From positions 1 to 10,266 of the IMG/VR virus record IMGVR_UViG_3300028991_000027: DNA of 10,266 nt. One strand, 5' to 3'. Position 1 is the stretch's first letter, and each line of letters starts with the position of its first letter. Below the pieces are notes generated by a model. It was not told the DNA's origin and ran no database searches. It saw only the letters and a list, made by a program, of their open reading frames with translations. The stretch comes from a virus (lineage: Duplodnaviria; Heunggongvirae; Uroviricota; Caudoviricetes). Positions 3,265 through 8,649 of this stretch are shown here, in pieces. Both the position numbers and the translations under genes were made by a program.

Positions 3265-3537
3265 TTACCTCCAGATGCGTTGCTGGAATGTGCGGGACGG
3301 ACGCGGAGGGCGTTCGGAATAAGGAAGCCTGACAGAGATTATCCAGTGACGATAATCGAGACTGAGGGCTTTCTTAACCTCGTATCCGCGCCTGCGGTAA
3401 CACTGAATCAGCCATTCGGCCTGTTCTTCAGTGCATGGGGGATGCAGGTACCAGTGGGTTTTAAATACGTACGAATGCCGCCCCCGCTTAATGGCCGGGA
3501 CGGCTTCAGAATTGTGGGATTTTATATGTTGCGCCAT
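3265..3537 (-). CDS. hypothetical nin-region protein (about 90 aa from ATG 3537; ORF track extends to a TTG at 3585)
   Basis: ORF 3265..3585. Its stop lies 1 nt before the DUF968 GTG start, suggesting coupling. The TTG at 3585 sits almost inside the upstream terminator T-tract, so the internal ATG at 3537 (MAQHIKSHNSEAV...) is preferred. No family recognised. Confidence 0.4.
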   Translation of the reverse strand: MAQHIKSHNSEAVPAIKRGRHSYVFKTHWYLHPPCTEEQAEWLIQCYRRRGYEVKKALSLDYRHWIISVRLPYSERPPRPSRTFQQRIWR

Positions 3538-3600
3538 CGCAGCAGGTGTCAGTTGTTCAGGCTGACGGCGCGAATTGTAAGGCAATACGCCGGAATGTAC

Positions 3601-3628
3601 AAACAGAAACCCCGTCAGTAAGACGGGG
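3601..3628 (-). terminator. rho-independent terminator downstream of the OB-fold gene
   Basis: Minus strand: CCCCGTC-ttact-GACGGGG followed by TTTCTGTTT (plus stem arms 3610-3616 and 3622-3628). Confidence 0.5.
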
Positions 3629-3645
3629 ATAACCTGAACCGATTA

Positions 3646-3990
3646 CTATAATAATTTCAGAGTTTTTACATCCAGTTCAACACTGTTCAGGTCTTTATCA
3701 AGTTCCCCCTCAATTATTACCTTGTCTTTCGGAGAAACATTCTGCCCGGCCCATACACTTTTATCGATATCCGTGACAATGGTTCCGCTACTGTCGCGAA
3801 ACTCATAACGATCATCACCCAATTTTTTAACGATGTGCCCTTCAAGGATAACCCATGCCTCGTCCTTCTGTTCTTTTGCCTGCACTACTGTTGTTGAACG
3901 CTCTGCTTCAGACCCCAGAAAACCTCCCTGTTGTGCAAAAACGCCAAAAGACACGCAGGAAAAAAGGGCTGCGATTAATACTTTTTTCAT
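3646..3990 (-). CDS. YgiW/YdeI-family (BOF) OB-fold periplasmic protein with signal peptide (114 aa)
   Basis: Start taken at ATG 3990 (MKKVLIAALFSCVSFGVFAQQGGF...), preceded by GAGGA; the ORF-track N-terminal extension is not supported. QGGF, DDRYEFRDSSGTIVTDID and GELDKDLNSVELDVK match the YgiW/YdeI pattern as recalled. Flanked by its own terminator. Confidence 0.8.
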   Translation of the reverse strand: MKKVLIAALFSCVSFGVFAQQGGFLGSEAERSTTVVQAKEQKDEAWVILEGHIVKKLGDDRYEFRDSSGTIVTDIDKSVWAGQNVSPKDKVIIEGELDKDLNSVELDVKTLKLL

Positions 3991-4078
3991 TATCGTCCTC
4001 TTCAAGAAATTAACATGAACACTTGCATTGCAGCATATAAAATGCGGGTGCGTTGAGGATGCCTGACACATCAGAGGT

Positions 4079-4100
4079 GGCGAGGGATTTCTCCCTCGCC
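4079..4100 (-). terminator. stable GC hairpin at the 3' end of the hok transcript
   Basis: GGCGAGGGA-tttc-TCCCTCGCC, 8 nt past the hok stop codon. No clean U-tract on the minus strand, so it may be a 3' stabilising or fold-back element rather than an intrinsic terminator. Confidence 0.35.
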
Positions 4101-4107
4101 TGGTCTC

Positions 4108-4263
4108 TTACTTCTCAGATTCGTAGTCTACGAAGACAGCGACCTCCGTCTGGCCGGTTCGGATTCGTACCTCGCAGAGGTCTTTCCTCGTTACCAGTGC
4201 CGTCACTATGACGGTTAAACAGATGACGATCAGGGCGATTAACATCGCCTTTTGCTGCTTCAT
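4108..4263 (-). CDS. hok: Hok/Gef-family type I toxin (51 aa membrane peptide)
   Basis: Translated by hand from the minus strand: MKQQKAMLIALIVICLTVIVTALVTRKDLCEVRIRTGQTEVAVFVDYESEK. It is shorter than the ORF-track cutoff. Hydrophobic N-terminus and the TRKDLCEV...GQTEVA core match the Hok family. Confidence 0.9.
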   Translation of the reverse strand: MKQQKAMLIALIVICLTVIVTALVTRKDLCEVRIRTGQTEVAVFVDYESEK

Positions 4264-4321
4264 AGTCTGCTTCTCCTTGACCTTTCGGTCCGTAAGAGGC
4301 TAACCTACGTTTGTGAAGCAT
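4115..4321 (-). CDS. mok: mok-like overlapping reading frame (68 aa) upstream of and overlapping hok
   Basis: ORF 4115..4321 begins with ATG 58 nt upstream of hok and overlaps it in another frame, as mok does in hok/sok loci. The protein itself is low-complexity; the call is positional. Confidence 0.4.
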   Translation of the reverse strand: MLHKRRLASYGPKGQGEADYEAAKGDVNRPDRHLFNRHSDGTGNEERPLRGTNPNRPDGGRCLRRLRI

Positions 4322-4380
4322 AGATTGGGCCTCAGATTAATGTTAAGCGTCTTGCAGGACGCGTAATGTTAACTGGGGCT
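4290..4380 (+). ncRNA. sok: possible sok-like antisense RNA region (position inferred, boundaries not defined)
   Basis: In hok/sok loci the antisense RNA overlaps the mok start on the opposite strand. Here I find only a weak plus-strand promoter candidate (TTGACC 4277-4282, poor -10) and a small hairpin GCGTC-ttgcag-GACGC at 4347-4362. It may be degenerate. Confidence 0.2.
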
Positions 4381-4439
4381 TTTCTCTGTCTGCCTTACGG
4401 CGGCATGCCCGAGGCAGACAGCCTCAGGCACCCGCAGCA

Positions 4440-4467
4440 ATTCTACTTTACTCTCGTTTTACTGCAA
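4440..4467 (-). promoter_or_regulatory. putative sigma70 promoter for hok/mok mRNA
   Basis: Minus strand: TTGCAG (plus 4462-4467), 16-nt spacer, TAGAAT (plus 4440-4445). This gives a leader of roughly 110 nt before the mok-like ATG. Confidence 0.45.
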
Positions 4468-4571
4468 ACCTTTTATCCCGGGCGCATATTACCCGATATG
4501 GGAACTCACACATCGAAATGAATTCGCTTCCATTGCCCCCTCAATCACATAACCAGACACATAAAATGTAC

Positions 4572-4636: not shown

Positions 4637-4924
4637 ATGGGTCACGTCTATTTTGACACATTAAAATTTGCCGAAGCACTGGAAAAAGCTGGCATGCCAG
4701 CTGAACAGGCGCGCGCCATTTCCTCCGCAATAAAAGATGCCCATGAGGCAATTGAAGTTGCAACTAAAAATGACCTTCACTACGCAAGCTCAGAACTTAA
4801 GCGCGATATTCTGTCAATTAATGAGAAAATTGACCACCTCATATTTCAAGTAACTTTTCGGTTAGGGGTAATAATTTCTATATGTATAGTAGTTGTATTT
4901 GCCATAATTAAAATGAATATGTAA
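4637..4924 (+). CDS. small coiled-coil protein with C-terminal transmembrane helix (DUF1640-like, 95 aa)
   Basis: Complete ORF with a good SD. Protein MGHVYFDTLKFAEALEKAGMPAEQARAISSAIKDAHEA... ends in the hydrophobic LGVIISICIVVVFAIIKM. Opposite strand to all neighbours, with its own terminator. Family name is from memory. Confidence 0.65.
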   Translation: MGHVYFDTLKFAEALEKAGMPAEQARAISSAIKDAHEAIEVATKNDLHYASSELKRDILSINEKIDHLIFQVTFRLGVIISICIVVVFAIIKMNM

Positions 4925-6158: not shown

Positions 6159-6884
6159 TCACTTTTCCGACACAATACGACCGGATGAATCGACAATCTG
6201 CCGAACAATATCCCGGTGCTTGTTCAACTCCCGCAACGCGGCACAGACTCGTTCCCACTTCTGGACATCACTTTTCGCCCGGCGCAGCTCGCGGTTAGCC
6301 ACATGCAGCGATGGTAGAATCAGGTCATCTGCTTTCGTTTCGGTGACCGATGGCTGTAACTTCACAATGTCTTCCACGATTTCTGTTTTCATTTCTTCCT
6401 GTGTCGTCGTTTCCTGGACTGGTAACGCAACACCTGCTGGCTGAGGAAAGGCTTTACCATCGGTTTCCGCTACGGATGCCGCTTCCGGCTCTGCCGGTAA
6501 ATCAGCGCCCGGTATGCAGTAACGAAATTTACCGCCCTGATTCACGCGAATCAGACGCCCTTTGCTGATTGCCATTGCCAGCGATGAATTCGCCCGGCGG
6601 GAGGTAATTCCGAACATCAGTGCCAGTTCATCCGCCGTTTGTGGGCCATGTTGTTCAATCGCCTCTGTCAGCATTTGCGCTGTCACTTTCGGTACCGGTG
6701 ACACCGGTTCACTTTCACCAGCCTGAGTCAGCCACCACATCGACCCCTTGTTATCCGCTTCACCGCGGCGCTTCAGTTTCCACAGTTCGTTGACCGCCTC
6801 TTCACGGCTGATTCCAAGGCGCGATGCCACTACCTGTGAAGAGGCTTTTTTCAGTGCTTTCAGTGCGTCAAATACGGTTTCCAT
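6159..6884 (-). CDS. phage protein with two N-terminal winged-helix-like domains, acidic linker and C-terminal coiled coil (241 aa from ATG 6884)
   Basis: ORF 6159..6902; the ATG at 6884 with GGAGG upstream is preferred over the TTG at 6902. Two HTH-like segments ([27 protein letters not shown] and [28 protein letters not shown]). Sits directly after the DnaC-like gene. Function unknown. Confidence 0.6.
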
Positions 6885-6905
6885 TAAAACGTCCTCCGAC
6901 AAAAA

Positions 6906-7652
6906 TTACTTCACAACCCTCTGATTGCTGACATTTGGACGCCAGCTATCCCAGTTAAACGTCACCCATCGACCACCGTTCATGGTCATGCGGTCCATAA
7001 TCCTCTCACCGAGAAGCGTACTCATTGCGGCATGATTCAGGTTTGTTAACATCCCGACACTGCACAGTGATGCTGTCCGGCGATCAATTATCTGGTGCAA
7101 TACCACCTGCTCGTTTTTCGTCTCACGCTGAACGCCTATTTCATCCAGGACCAGCAAATCAACCCCGCAAAGCTCCTGTAAAAATTTTTCCCCGGACTGG
7201 CCGTTGTCGTAGCTGTCATGCAACACACTCATGACGTCAGACACGGTGACGATAATCACGCTGCTCCCCTTCGCCATCAGCCGGTTGCCCATCGCCGCTG
7301 CAAGGTGATTTTTCCCGGTGCCGGTTTTACCGCTGAACACAAAATTCGTGCACCCGGTCATCAGTTCGTCAGCGATGGATTTTGCCTGGCTCAGCGCGTG
7401 TTTTTGCCCGTCGTTCTGCACCTGATAATTCGCAAACGAGCATTTGCTGTGCAGAGGCTGGATGCCCGAACGATTCAGGATTTTTTCCACCCGCAACTGG
7501 CGATTCTGGCGGTTAATCTCCTCGCTGCGTTTTCGTCCTTCAGCAAGCTGCCATTCCCGCCACTCCTCCACCGTCCGGTACGGTGGAACCGCCCCCTGTG
7601 GTGCAAGTCTGCGAATACGTTCAAGAACCCCGGCTGCCGCAATGTTTTTCAT
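6906..7652 (-). CDS. DnaC-family helicase loader (phage replication protein P analogue, 248 aa)
   Basis: Walker A FVFSGKTGTGKNHLAAA, Walker B DLLVLDEIGVQ, and a C-terminus (MLTNLNHAAMSTLLGERIMDRM...FNWDSWRP) close to E. coli DnaC as recalled. ATG at 7652. Confidence 0.9.
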   Translation of the reverse strand: MKNIAAAGVLERIRRLAPQGAVPPYRTVEEWREWQLAEGRKRSEEINRQNRQLRVEKILNRSGIQPLHSKCSFANYQVQNDGQKHALSQAKSIADELMTGCTNFVFSGKTGTGKNHLAAAMGNRLMAKGSSVIIVTVSDVMSVLHDSYDNGQSGEKFLQELCGVDLLVLDEIGVQRETKNEQVVLHQIIDRRTASLCSVGMLTNLNHAAMSTLLGERIMDRMTMNGGRWVTFNWDSWRPNVSNQRVVK

Positions 7653-7658
7653 GCCACG

Positions 7659-8627
7659 TCACCCCCTGAATCCAGGCGGTATTTCAGTGTCCGGTTCAGA
7701 AATGTGATTCACGCAACGCTGCGCGGGCGAACGCCCCAGGCGGATAACCAGTTCATCCCATTTTTCCCGGAGTTTTGCCGGACTCATGATGTTTTTTACC
7801 CAGAACGAATCCCGCTGGACACGCCCAAACATTTCACAAATCTGCCGGTGACTACGTCCATCCAGCATACGCATCATGCGCACATCATTCGCCCAGGTCG
7901 TCCAGTTAGGTTCTCGGGGGCGTGACACCTCACCATCATCACTGGCGGCCTGTTCATACAACGCCACAACCCGTCCCCAAATCCACTGCGCACAGGCGAC
8001 ATCCTCACGGGTACCCCACTGTCGCTTCGGTACATTCCAGGTATGCGCATCCGGGTGTTTCTCCAGAAATCGCTCAACTGGTGATGATTGTTTTTCGTCC
8101 GGCAGTGAAACGTCCGGACAAGAAGATCTTTTATCTGACGGATCAGGTTTTAATACTGACGGATCGGGGTCAATCATCGCCCCCCTAATCGGCAGTTTTT
8201 TATCAACCGTTGATCCATCAAAATTTGACGGGTCAACCGTTGAGGGGTCAATATTTGACGGGTCAACTGTTAACGGGTCATTTTTTGCCGGGCTAATTTT
8301 TCTTTTCGGTTTATATGACTCACGCGCCGCCGCCGCAGCTGCTTCGAGTTTTTCCACATTAAGCCGATAGATATTGCTTACATTACGCCCACCGACCTTA
8401 CGCTCTTCCTTCGTCAGCCAGCCCTCTTTCGCCAGTTCTGCAATAGCCGATTTCACGGTGGATTCACTTCTTGCACCGATCTGACGCCGGATAGTTTCAA
8501 TGGCAGGCCATGACACGCCCTCGTCATTGCTGTAGTCTGCTAGACGGGCCATCACTGCCACCCGGGATAAGATCATGCCGGTGAAGGCGCATCCTTCCCA
8601 GACAAGACCATGAAGCTTGCTGCTCAT
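7659..8627 (-). CDS. replication initiator, lambda O-like (N-terminal winged-helix domain, repeat-encoded linker, C-terminal domain; 322 aa from ATG 8627)
   Basis: ORF 7659..8642; the ATG at 8627 preceded by GGGGG is preferred over the GTG at 8642. It lies immediately upstream of the DnaC-like gene, and the iteron repeats fall inside its linker (DPLTVDPSNIDPSTVDPSNFDGSTVD), as in lambda O. Confidence 0.75.
   Translation of the reverse strand: MSSKLHGLVWEGCAFTGMILSRVAVMARLADYSNDEGVSWPAIETIRRQIGARSESTVKSAIAELAKEGWLTKEERKVGGRNVSNIYRLNVEKLEAAAAAARESYKPKRKISPAKNDPLTVDPSNIDPSTVDPSNFDGSTVDKKLPIRGAMIDPDPSVLKPDPSDKRSSCPDVSLPDEKQSSPVERFLEKHPDAHTWNVPKRQWGTREDVACAQWIWGRVVALYEQAASDDGEVSRPREPNWTTWANDVRMMRMLDGRSHRQICEMFGRVQRDSFWVKNIMSPAKLREKWDELVIRLGRSPAQRCVNHISEPDTEIPPGFRG
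8137..8320. repeat. iteron-like direct repeats plus AT-rich tract: putative origin of replication inside the O-like gene
   Basis: A 20-bp repeat TTTGACGGGTCAAC(C/T)GTT(G/A)A at 8224-8243 and 8254-8273. The GGGTCA core recurs at about 15-bp spacing (around 8166, 8230, 8244, 8260, 8275), with GACGGATCA variants at 8137 and 8158. An AT-rich stretch follows at 8281-8320. Confidence 0.6.
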
Positions 8628-8649
8628 AAAACCCCCGAACACCGTGCTT

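What the first reader, a model, noticed from the sequence alone, without database searches (positions are those of the whole stretch)
3646..3990. YgiW/YdeI-family OB-fold periplasmic protein as probable lysogenic-conversion cargo
This 114-aa protein has a signal peptide, strong SD and its own terminator. Chromosomal members of the family have been linked to envelope stress and antimicrobial-peptide tolerance. A prophage copy next to a membrane toxin suggests a host-fitness or envelope-modifying function, or possibly an immunity partner for Hok, which would be unusual.
Basis: partly seen in the sequence, partly recalled or inferred. Interest (0 to 1): 0.45.

Follow-up and report, generated by a model that had tools for sequence, protein, structure and literature searches.

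The report
Prophage YgiW-like periplasmic protein behind hok
This is an already annotated YgiW-like periplasmic stress-protein gene carried by E. coli lambdoid and Shiga-toxin prophages; the one fresh point is that it always sits inside the transcription unit of a hok toxin gene, which does not need it.

Summary
Window 3646-3990 (minus strand) encodes a 114-aa protein with a Sec-type signal peptide, an AGAGGA Shine-Dalgarno and a downstream terminator. It is a clear BOF (YgiW/YdeI) family member: Pfam E 5.6e-31 and 46% identity to E. coli YgiW, whose structure is solved.

It is not new. The exact protein is RefSeq WP_089577306.1, and its 82%-identical homologue in phage 933W (L0136) carries the same annotation.

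What the comparison adds:
- The gene belongs to an 881-bp cassette (3599-4479): hok promoter, mok/hok/sok, BOF gene, terminator. The cassette recurs with the same ends in two different prophage positions.
- About 550 of 5426 complete E. coli genomes carry the hok-BOF junction, so every BOF copy is hok-linked. About 95% of near-identical hok loci lack it.
- In hok-only loci a canonical terminator follows hok's 3' fold-back (fbi) element. In BOF loci that terminator is missing and termination moves to after the BOF gene.

The BOF gene is therefore probably co-transcribed with hok and expressed in lysogens. dN/dS is about 0.25, so it is under purifying selection.

Best reading: a lysogenic-conversion gene giving YgiW-like envelope-stress tolerance. 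The 'Hok immunity partner' idea is not supported. Interest is low to moderate.

The parts
4440..4468 (-). hok promoter (TTTGCA-17 nt-TAGAAT). It marks the upstream end of the cassette, which ends at about 4479.
   Evidence: Promoter-like site. The hok mRNA 5' end, by the Rfam model, starts at 4433. Homology with all relatives ends at 4477-4479.
4261..4433 (-). hok mRNA leader: the 5' element that pairs with fbi (tac), the mok start region and the Sok target.
   Evidence: Rfam RF01794, 103.9 bits, E 2.8e-23, full-length model match.
4277..4383 (+). sok promoter (TTGACC 4277-4282, TAACCT 4301-4306) and Sok antisense RNA (about 4313-4383).
   Evidence: Positional homology to the annotated sokW of phage 933W. 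Sequence read.
4115..4321 (-). mok reading frame. In this window it is shifted out of frame with hok by a 1-nt insertion at about 4279-4280.
   Evidence: In 933W, L002, L052 and L053, mok is an in-frame extension of hok.
4108..4263 (-). hok toxin gene (51 aa, HokW/HokD type).
   Evidence: PF01848 E 4.3e-23. 100% identical to HokW of 933W/Sp5.
4079..4100 (-). Stable hairpin in the hok 3' UTR (GGCGAGGGAGAAATCCCTCGCC).
   Evidence: RNA fold. Conserved with compensating changes among alleles.
4043..4058 (-). fbi element of hok mRNA (CCTCAACGCACCCGCA), which pairs with the mRNA 5' end.
   Evidence: The 402-nt fold closes 5' and 3' ends, z = -8.9. All hok-only loci lose homology to the window at 4040-4046.
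3991..4042 (-). hok-BOF spacer. It has no intrinsic terminator, only weak promoter-like matches, and the Shine-Dalgarno AGAGGA at 3996-4001.
3646..3990 (-). BOF (YgiW-like) gene, 114 aa. Signal peptide codons are 3934-3990. The mature protein is 95 aa with pI 4.7.
3599..3628 (-). Intrinsic terminator (CCCCGTCTTACTGACGGGG plus a T-rich tail). It marks the downstream end of the cassette.
   Evidence: The same element is found in 933W. Homology with 933W-type loci ends at 3599.

Best explanation
The gene encodes a secreted, acidic, roughly 10.6-kDa OB-fold protein of the BOF family, closest to YgiW. It is cargo of a small mobile cassette built on a hokW/hokD-type type I toxin-antitoxin locus.

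The BOF gene is inserted between the 3' fold-back (fbi) element of hok mRNA and the transcription terminator. It is therefore most likely transcribed from the constitutive hok promoter as the second cistron of an about 0.85-kb RNA, translated from its own Shine-Dalgarno, and exported to the periplasm.

In a lysogen this would give the host an extra YgiW-like protein outside the normal control of chromosomal ygiW. By analogy with YgiW, VisP, YdeI and SipA, it would raise tolerance to cationic antimicrobial peptides, metal cations and oxidative stress by binding such ligands and/or outer-membrane proteins. During induction in this window, early rightward transcription runs through the cassette in the same direction and would raise its expression further.

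**Shown here:** family, fold and export signal; cassette boundaries; obligatory linkage to hok; absence of the hok terminator where the BOF gene is present; purifying selection.

**Inferred:** co-transcription, expression in lysogens, and the stress-tolerance function.
For: **Family and fold.**. 46% identity to K-12 YgiW and 40% over 77 aa to YdeI. Even a low-confidence model has 1nnx as its top PDB hit.

**Export.** N-terminal signal peptide; mature pI 4.7, the same as YgiW.

**Cassette.**
- Identical ends (3599 and 4477-4479) occur in the nin region (window, L002, L020-L048) and near attR after the tail genes in 933W/Sp5 (L001, L012, Sakai ECs_1244/ECs_1245).
- hok lies about 120 nt upstream in 44 of the 46 IMG/VR loci. 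The other two (L013, L035) are cut at the contig end before the position where hok would lie.
- 553 records in 550 genomes span the hok-BOF junction, against 526 records found with the BOF gene alone.

**Transcription unit.**
- Every hok-only locus that has the fbi motif carries CCCGCTTCGGCGGG plus a T-run about 6 nt after it, in many different downstream contexts.
- All 19 BOF-carrying loci in that set lack it there, and a terminator follows the BOF gene instead.
- No strong promoter lies in the spacer in either allele; the best matches are 7 of 12.
- An unrelated lipoprotein gene occupies the same fbi-to-terminator slot in L052.

**Promoter activity.** hokW mRNA is present in uninduced Sp5 lysogens (PMC8621323).

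**Selection.** dN/dS is 0.23-0.27 between the two main alleles at dS about 0.33. All 88 copies recovered from the fetched loci (IMG/VR plus a few genome and phage records) are full length.

**Cargo behaviour.** GC dip. Independent BOF captures sit just after Q in other prophages, without hok (L093, L094).

**Family function from the literature.**
- YgiW and SipA protect against H2O2 and cadmium and cross-complement each other. SipA binds antimicrobial peptides and OmpA (PMC6370654).
- VisP binds peptidoglycan, inhibits LpxO and confers cationic-peptide resistance (reviewed in PMC5053249).
Against: - No transcript, protein or phenotype data exist for this gene. No paper in the searched library addresses it.
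- A weak, positionally conserved promoter-like site (TCCTCA-16/17 nt-TATGCT or CATACT) overlaps the fbi element. Independent transcription therefore cannot be excluded.
- The tac-fbi long-range helix followed by UUUU might terminate some transcripts before the BOF gene.
- The host already has ygiW and ydeI, so the added benefit is uncertain.
- Strict linkage to hok could mean a phage-cycle role rather than host fitness.
Confidence: 0.5

Rival explanations
1. Hok partner or immunity protein: the periplasmic BOF protein binds the periplasmic tail of Hok (or buffers its membrane damage) and so protects the lysogen or tunes Hok-assisted lysis.
For: - Every BOF copy found is immediately downstream of hok.
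- The two are probably on one transcript.
- HokW in Sp5 is made on induction and advances lysis (PMC8621323). The deletion used there leaves a kanamycin cassette directly upstream of the BOF gene, so a contribution of that gene to the phenotype was not excluded.
Against: - The locus has a complete Sok antisense system, which suffices to neutralise HokW on a plasmid that carries only about the first 12 BOF codons (PMC8621323; primer YO-433).
- About 95% of near-identical hok loci in E. coli lack the BOF gene (10,922 against 562 places).
- Hok proteins 100% identical to this one occur without it.
- BOF genes in other prophages have no hok nearby.
- An unrelated lipoprotein can fill the same slot.
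Confidence: 0.08
2. Superinfection exclusion or receptor masking: the BOF protein binds outer-membrane proteins from the periplasmic side, as reported for YgiW-OmpF, YdeI-OmpD and SipA-OmpA. This would hinder adsorption or DNA entry of competing phages.
For: - Family members bind porins or OmpA (PMC6370654).
- Prophage cargo genes for secreted or lipoproteins often act in exclusion (general knowledge).
- The alternative cargo in the same slot is a lipoprotein.
- Several prophage lineages have recruited BOF genes.
Against: - No match to any PADLOC defence model.
- No experimental hint.
- The chromosomal paralogues are not known to affect phage sensitivity.
Confidence: 0.12
3. Neutral hitch-hiker: the gene was captured once downstream of hok. 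It persists only because hok stabilises the cassette, and it has no selected function.
For: - Linkage is one-way: the BOF gene always comes with hok.
- The prophage-type protein was only found in E. coli.
- A few frameshifted singletons exist (P0004-P0007).
Against: - dN/dS is about 0.25 over dS about 0.33 between alleles.
- The signal peptide, Shine-Dalgarno and full length are conserved in 88 of 88 recovered copies.
- Other prophages acquired BOF genes independently.
Confidence: 0.1

Closest known systems
E. coli YgiW / Salmonella VisP (BOF family, PDB 1nnx)
   Same: Same Pfam and NCBIfam family. 46% identity over the whole protein. Signal peptide followed by a QGGF motif and an OB-fold domain. 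Acidic mature protein, pI 4.7 in both.
   Different: - Shorter: 114 against 130 aa, with one QGGF repeat instead of two.
- Encoded in a prophage behind hok, not next to qseBC.
- Falls just below the TIGR00156 subfamily cutoff (105.3 against 108.15 bits).
- No functional data.
L0136 of phage 933W, H0152 / ECs_1244 of Sakai prophage Sp5
   Same: Same gene in the same hok-BOF cassette with the same ends. 82-83% protein identity, 88% DNA identity over 881 bp, and an identical Hok.
   Different: - A different allele, with dS about 0.33.
- A different place in the phage genome: near attR after the tail genes, against the nin region here.
- mok is in frame with hok there and shifted here.
- The window allele is the rarer one: 12 of 526 records at 95-99% identity.
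E. coli / Salmonella YdeI (OmdA)
   Same: BOF family. A periplasmic protein linked to polymyxin resistance and porin binding (PMC6370654).
   Different: Only 40% identity over 77 aa. The YdeI equivalog model scores 65.8 bits against a cutoff of 179. The mature YdeI pI is 7.1.
Classical lambdoid morons (lambda bor and lom, stx downstream of Q)
   Same: A small gene for an envelope or secreted product, not needed for phage growth, with atypical GC content, bracketed by a promoter and a terminator, and found at different positions in related phages. The comparison to bor and lom rests on general knowledge.
   Different: The promoter appears to be borrowed from a toxin-antitoxin locus. The cargo lies inside the hok transcription unit, between fbi and the terminator.

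Membership tests
BOF family (Pfam PF04076; NCBIfam NF033674 NirD/YgiW/YdeI) | Profile match above the curated cutoff | tested here: met
   PF04076: 107.1 bits against 25.8. NF033674: 128.5 bits against 35.
BOF family | OB-fold (five-stranded beta-barrel) domain like 1nnx | tested here: met
   Sequence match to 1nnx at E 1e-25 over residues 19-112. The AF2 model has a helix followed by five strands, and its top Foldseek PDB hit is 1nnx at E 5.8e-7. The model pLDDT is only 60.
BOF family | N-terminal signal peptide and periplasmic location | tested here: inconclusive
   The sequence shows MKK, a hydrophobic core and VFA|QQ, aligned with the YgiW signal peptide. No dedicated predictor was available and localisation was not measured.
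YgiW/YdeI subfamily TIGR00156 | Score above the curated subfamily cutoff | tested here: not met
   105.3 bits against a cutoff of 108.15. This is a narrow miss, consistent with a shortened N-terminal linker.
YdeI equivalog (NF007471) | Score above the equivalog cutoff | tested here: not met
   65.8 bits against a cutoff of 179.
BOF family, functional definition | Protection against cationic peptides, metals or peroxide; binding to outer-membrane proteins or peptidoglycan | not testable with these tools
   Known only for YgiW, VisP, YdeI and SipA (PMC6370654, PMC5053249).
hok/sok type I toxin-antitoxin locus (the neighbour, considered as a possible partner system) | Hok toxin ORF, Sok antisense with promoter, structured leader, and tac-fbi end pairing | tested here: met
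   PF01848, RF01794 full-length match, end-pairing fold z = -8.9. mok is frameshifted relative to hok in this window.
hok/sok locus with the BOF protein as a required component | The BOF gene accompanies hok wherever this hok type occurs | tested here: not met
   562 BOF places against 10,922 hok places in E. coli genomes. In IMG/VR, 56 of 75 usable hok loci lack it, including loci with an identical Hok.
Moron / lysogenic-conversion gene | Autonomous unit with a promoter and terminator, found at different places in related phages, with atypical composition | tested here: met
   The unit is the whole hok-BOF cassette, not the BOF gene alone.
Moron / lysogenic-conversion gene | Expressed from the repressed prophage and changes the host phenotype | not testable with these tools
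   Only indirect: hokW mRNA is present in uninduced Sp5 lysogens (PMC8621323), and no terminator lies between hok and the BOF gene.

The most novel reading that the evidence does not exclude
The 3' end of the hok transcription unit, between the fbi element and the terminator, is a recurrent docking site where prophages insert genes for exported proteins: the BOF gene here and a lipoprotein gene in L052. The cargo is then expressed from the always-on toxin promoter and is inherited with the toxin's addictive stabilisation. The 430-nt 3' extension in turn changes how hok mRNA is matured and activated. Under this reading the BOF protein and Hok would form a functionally coupled envelope module that contributes to STEC fitness. 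The module was statistically associated with haemolytic uraemic syndrome in one genome-wide association study, where a gene pair called 'ygiW_2' plus a 'mokC-like' group is probably this cassette (PMC11950266).
Probability: 0.15. Interest if true: 0.6.

Novelty: already known. Interest (0 to 1): 0.3.

Why it matters
The cassette sits in about a tenth of complete E. coli genomes. The examples listed are mostly STEC serotypes such as O157:H7, O111, O145 and O121, and it is present in the Stx2 phages 933W and Sp5.

If the protein raises tolerance to host antimicrobial peptides or oxidative stress, it would be an overlooked fitness factor carried on the same phages as Shiga toxin. That could explain part of a reported statistical link between a ygiW-like/mok-like gene pair and haemolytic uraemic syndrome, although simple linkage to Stx2a phages is the more economical explanation.

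There is also a practical caution. Published hokW-sokW deletions in Sp5 leave a resistance cassette directly upstream of this gene, so their phenotypes may not be due to hok alone.

Tried and rejected
- **Hok immunity partner.** Rejected as a requirement on distribution grounds.\n- **Co-variation between the Hok periplasmic tail and BOF presence.** The VDYESEK tail seemed linked to the BOF gene in the first sample. The identical tail also occurs without the BOF gene, and a TAYEPEE-tailed Hok occurs with it. Dropped.\n- **Lipoprotein reading of the window allele (LFSC at residues 9-12).** The Cys is not conserved in the main allele (LISG), so a signal-peptidase-I substrate is more likely.\n- **Own strong promoter in the spacer.** None was found in either allele, only 7-of-12 matches.\n- **Anti-phage defence families.** No PADLOC match for the BOF protein, Hok or the neighbours.\n- **Search for the gene in other species.** Both genome-contig scans failed technically, because the chosen patterns fell on the signal peptide. 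The taxonomic range beyond E. coli remains untested. Protein searches found only E. coli sequences.\n- **Literature on the phage gene** (L0136, ECs1244, ygiW with prophage or Shiga). Nothing functional was found.\n- **Structure prediction.** Only a 4-sequence alignment was permitted, giving pLDDT 60. It was used only as a coarse fold check.

Full report
**Observation.** Window 3646-3990 on the minus strand is a 114-codon ORF plus a TAG stop.
- It matches Pfam BOF (PF04076, E 5.6e-31) and NCBIfam NF033674 'NirD/YgiW/YdeI family stress tolerance protein' (128.5 bits).
- It matches the solved E. coli YgiW structure 1nnx (E 1e-25).
- The N-terminus (MKK, a 15-residue hydrophobic core, VFA|QQ) is a typical Sec signal and aligns with that of YgiW.
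- AGAGGA lies 5 nt before the ATG.
- A 7-bp G+C-rich hairpin with a T-rich tail follows 17 nt after the stop.
- Upstream on the same strand is a 51-aa Hok toxin gene, with a full-length Rfam hok/sok leader match.
- The window is the early-right region of a lambdoid prophage: cI, cro, cII, O, P, then hok, BOF, DUF968, RusA and Q.

**Is it known?** Yes.
- The exact protein is RefSeq WP_089577306.1, already named as a YgiW/YdeI family protein.
- An 82-83% identical homologue is L0136 of Stx2 phage 933W, annotated 'similar to hypothetical YgiW and YdeI proteins' and lying next to hokW/mokW/sokW.
- The same gene is H0152 / ECs_1244 of Sakai prophage Sp5.
- PHROGs holds it as phrog_1230, function unknown.
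- No paper in the searched library studies the phage copy.

**Anatomy of the unit.** Alignment with 46 IMG/VR loci, 933W and E. coli genomes shows a cassette with fixed ends at window 3599 and 4477-4479. Its parts, in order on the minus strand, are:
- the hok promoter, TTTGCA-17 nt-TAGAAT;
- the structured leader with the Sok target;
- hok;
- a stable hairpin (4079-4100);
- the fbi element (4043-4058), which pairs with the mRNA 5' end in a 402-nt fold (z = -8.9);
- a 52-nt spacer;
- the BOF gene;
- the terminator.

The same cassette occurs in the nin region (this window, O121 strains and most IMG/VR loci). It also occurs after the tail genes near attR in 933W and Sp5. It is thus a mobile unit.

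**Linkage.**
- In 44 of the 46 IMG/VR loci, hok lies about 120 nt upstream. The other two are cut at the contig end before that position.
- In complete E. coli genomes, a junction probe that needs both genes is spanned in 553 records (550 genomes). A BOF-only probe finds 526 records. Every BOF copy is therefore hok-linked.
- The reverse does not hold. The same hok type is found at 10,922 places in 4724 genomes.
- 56 of 75 usable IMG/VR hok loci lack the BOF gene, including loci whose Hok is 100% identical.

**Transcription unit.**
- All hok-only matches lose homology to the window at 4040-4046, immediately 3' of fbi.
- In hok-only loci that carry the fbi motif, it is followed within about 6 nt by the terminator CCCGCTTCGGCGGG plus a T-run. 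This holds across many different downstream contexts.
- In all 19 BOF-carrying loci of that set, this terminator is absent, and a terminator follows the BOF gene instead.
- In E. coli Ecol_224, an unrelated 130-aa lipoprotein gene sits in the same slot. A truncated copy of the terminator lies before it and the intact one after it.
- The spacer has only weak promoter-like matches (7 of 12). One is positionally conserved between alleles.

I infer that the BOF gene is mainly co-transcribed with hok from the hok promoter. hokW mRNA is present in uninduced Sp5 lysogens (PMC8621323), so the BOF gene would be expressed in the lysogenic state. This step is inference: no transcript data were found.

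**Selection and relatives.**
- The window allele and the common 933W-type allele differ by about 20 synonymous and 20 non-synonymous changes: dS about 0.33, dN about 0.08, dN/dS 0.23-0.27.
- All 88 recovered copies are full length with the signal peptide intact.
- hok in the same cassettes has dS 0.03-0.10. I take this to reflect the RNA-structure constraints on hok mRNA.
- The protein is 46% identical to K-12 YgiW and 40% identical over 77 aa to YdeI.
- It has one QGGF motif where YgiW has two, and it shares YgiW's acidic mature pI of 4.7.
- Other BOF genes (45-47% identity) lie directly after Q antiterminators in two other prophage-like contigs, with no hok nearby (L093, L094). Prophages have therefore recruited this family more than once.
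- The BOF region has 43-45% GC, against 56-58% in the adjacent DUF968 gene.

**Mechanism.** Family members are periplasmic proteins that protect against cationic peptides, cadmium and peroxide.
- YgiW and Vibrio SipA cross-complement each other, and SipA binds antimicrobial peptides and OmpA (PMC6370654).
- Salmonella VisP binds peptidoglycan and inhibits LpxO (reviewed in PMC5053249).

The most likely role of the prophage copy is lysogenic conversion: an extra, constitutively expressed YgiW-like protein that raises envelope-stress tolerance (confidence about 0.5).

The rivals are weaker.
- **Hok partner or immunity protein.** Contradicted by distribution and by the sufficiency of Sok.
- **Superinfection exclusion through outer-membrane-protein binding.** No support, and no PADLOC match.
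- **Neutral hitch-hiker.** Contradicted by purifying selection.

**Context.** An Irish STEC genome-wide association study found a 'ygiW_2' plus 'mokC-like' gene pair associated with haemolytic uraemic syndrome (PMC11950266). This is very probably the cassette described here. Linkage with Stx2a phages of the 933W/Sp5 type is the simplest explanation.

The Sp5 hokW-sokW study deleted hok-sok with a retained kanamycin cassette directly upstream of the BOF gene. A polar effect on that gene was not considered.

**Verdict.** The family assignment and 'prophage cargo' reading are supported, and the Hok-immunity idea is not. The gene itself is already known and annotated. The modestly new point is its obligatory placement inside the hok transcription unit. 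Interest is 0.3.

Noticed in passing
window 4277-4321 (insertion at about 4279-4280): A 1-nt insertion relative to 933W, L002, L052 and L053 puts mok (ATG 4321) out of frame with hok, giving a 68-aa ORF at 4115-4321. In all relatives mok is an in-frame extension of hok. On the + strand the same base changes the sok -35 from TTGCCT to TTGACC. Both effects could attenuate Hok. E. coli UTAK-6 is 100% identical to the window over this region (4040-4479), so it carries the same insertion.
   Followed up: partly
window 3646-3648: The stop is TAG where relatives have AAG (Lys) followed by TAA. The protein is therefore 114 aa instead of 115 and ends ..KLL instead of ..KLLK.
   Followed up: yes
L052 3033-3425 (E. 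coli Ecol_224): A 130-aa predicted lipoprotein (signal MKKLVLVAGVMIATVMLGGC, phrog_16082, function unknown) occupies the same slot between the hok fbi element and the terminator that the BOF gene occupies here.
   Followed up: partly
window 4637-4924 (+ strand): A 95-aa ORF on the strand opposite to the early operon, in a 35-39% GC island. It has a weak N-terminal match to PF07798 (below the cutoff) and a hydrophobic C-terminus. It looks like another inserted cargo gene.
   Followed up: no
window 3574-3601 (- strand) and 3265-3585: A promoter-like site (TGTACA-16 nt-TACAAT) lies directly after the cassette terminator, ahead of a phrog_1212 ORF of unknown function. The TACAAT is also present in hok-only loci. 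Judging from relatives, the ORF probably starts at the Met that opens MAQHIKS... (codon 17 of the listed ORF).
   Followed up: no
L100 (plasmid pHX138.261ft_1, NZ_CP091840.1) 6778-7404: A hok-BOF pair 100% identical to window 3860-4263 sits on a 90-kb plasmid among IS1, IS5 and IS30 elements and prophage debris. The BOF ORF there is 117 aa because IS1 abuts its 3' end.
   Followed up: no
L095 and L096, 4001-4390 and 4443-4805: Two BOF-family genes lie in tandem in high-GC viral-collection contigs.
   Followed up: no
L093 3432-4384; L094 67-5466: BOF genes (45-47% identical) lie just downstream of Q antiterminators in other prophage-like contigs, the slot that holds stx in Stx phages. In L094 the gene lies among two DUF1440 membrane-protein genes and before an Rz spanin.
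   Followed up: partly
Sp5 hokW-sokW deletion (PMC8621323): The published delta-hokW-sokW::km allele keeps the resistance cassette immediately upstream of ECs_1244, the BOF gene. The hokW-sokW plasmid clone ends about 12 codons into that gene. Possible polar effects were not discussed.
   Followed up: no
window 8150-8280 (within the O-like gene 7659-8642): The replication-protein ORF encodes repeated DPS-x-x-DPS peptides (..TVDPSNIDPSTVDPSNFDGSTVD..). This is the pattern expected where origin iterons lie inside a lambda-type O gene.
   Followed up: no
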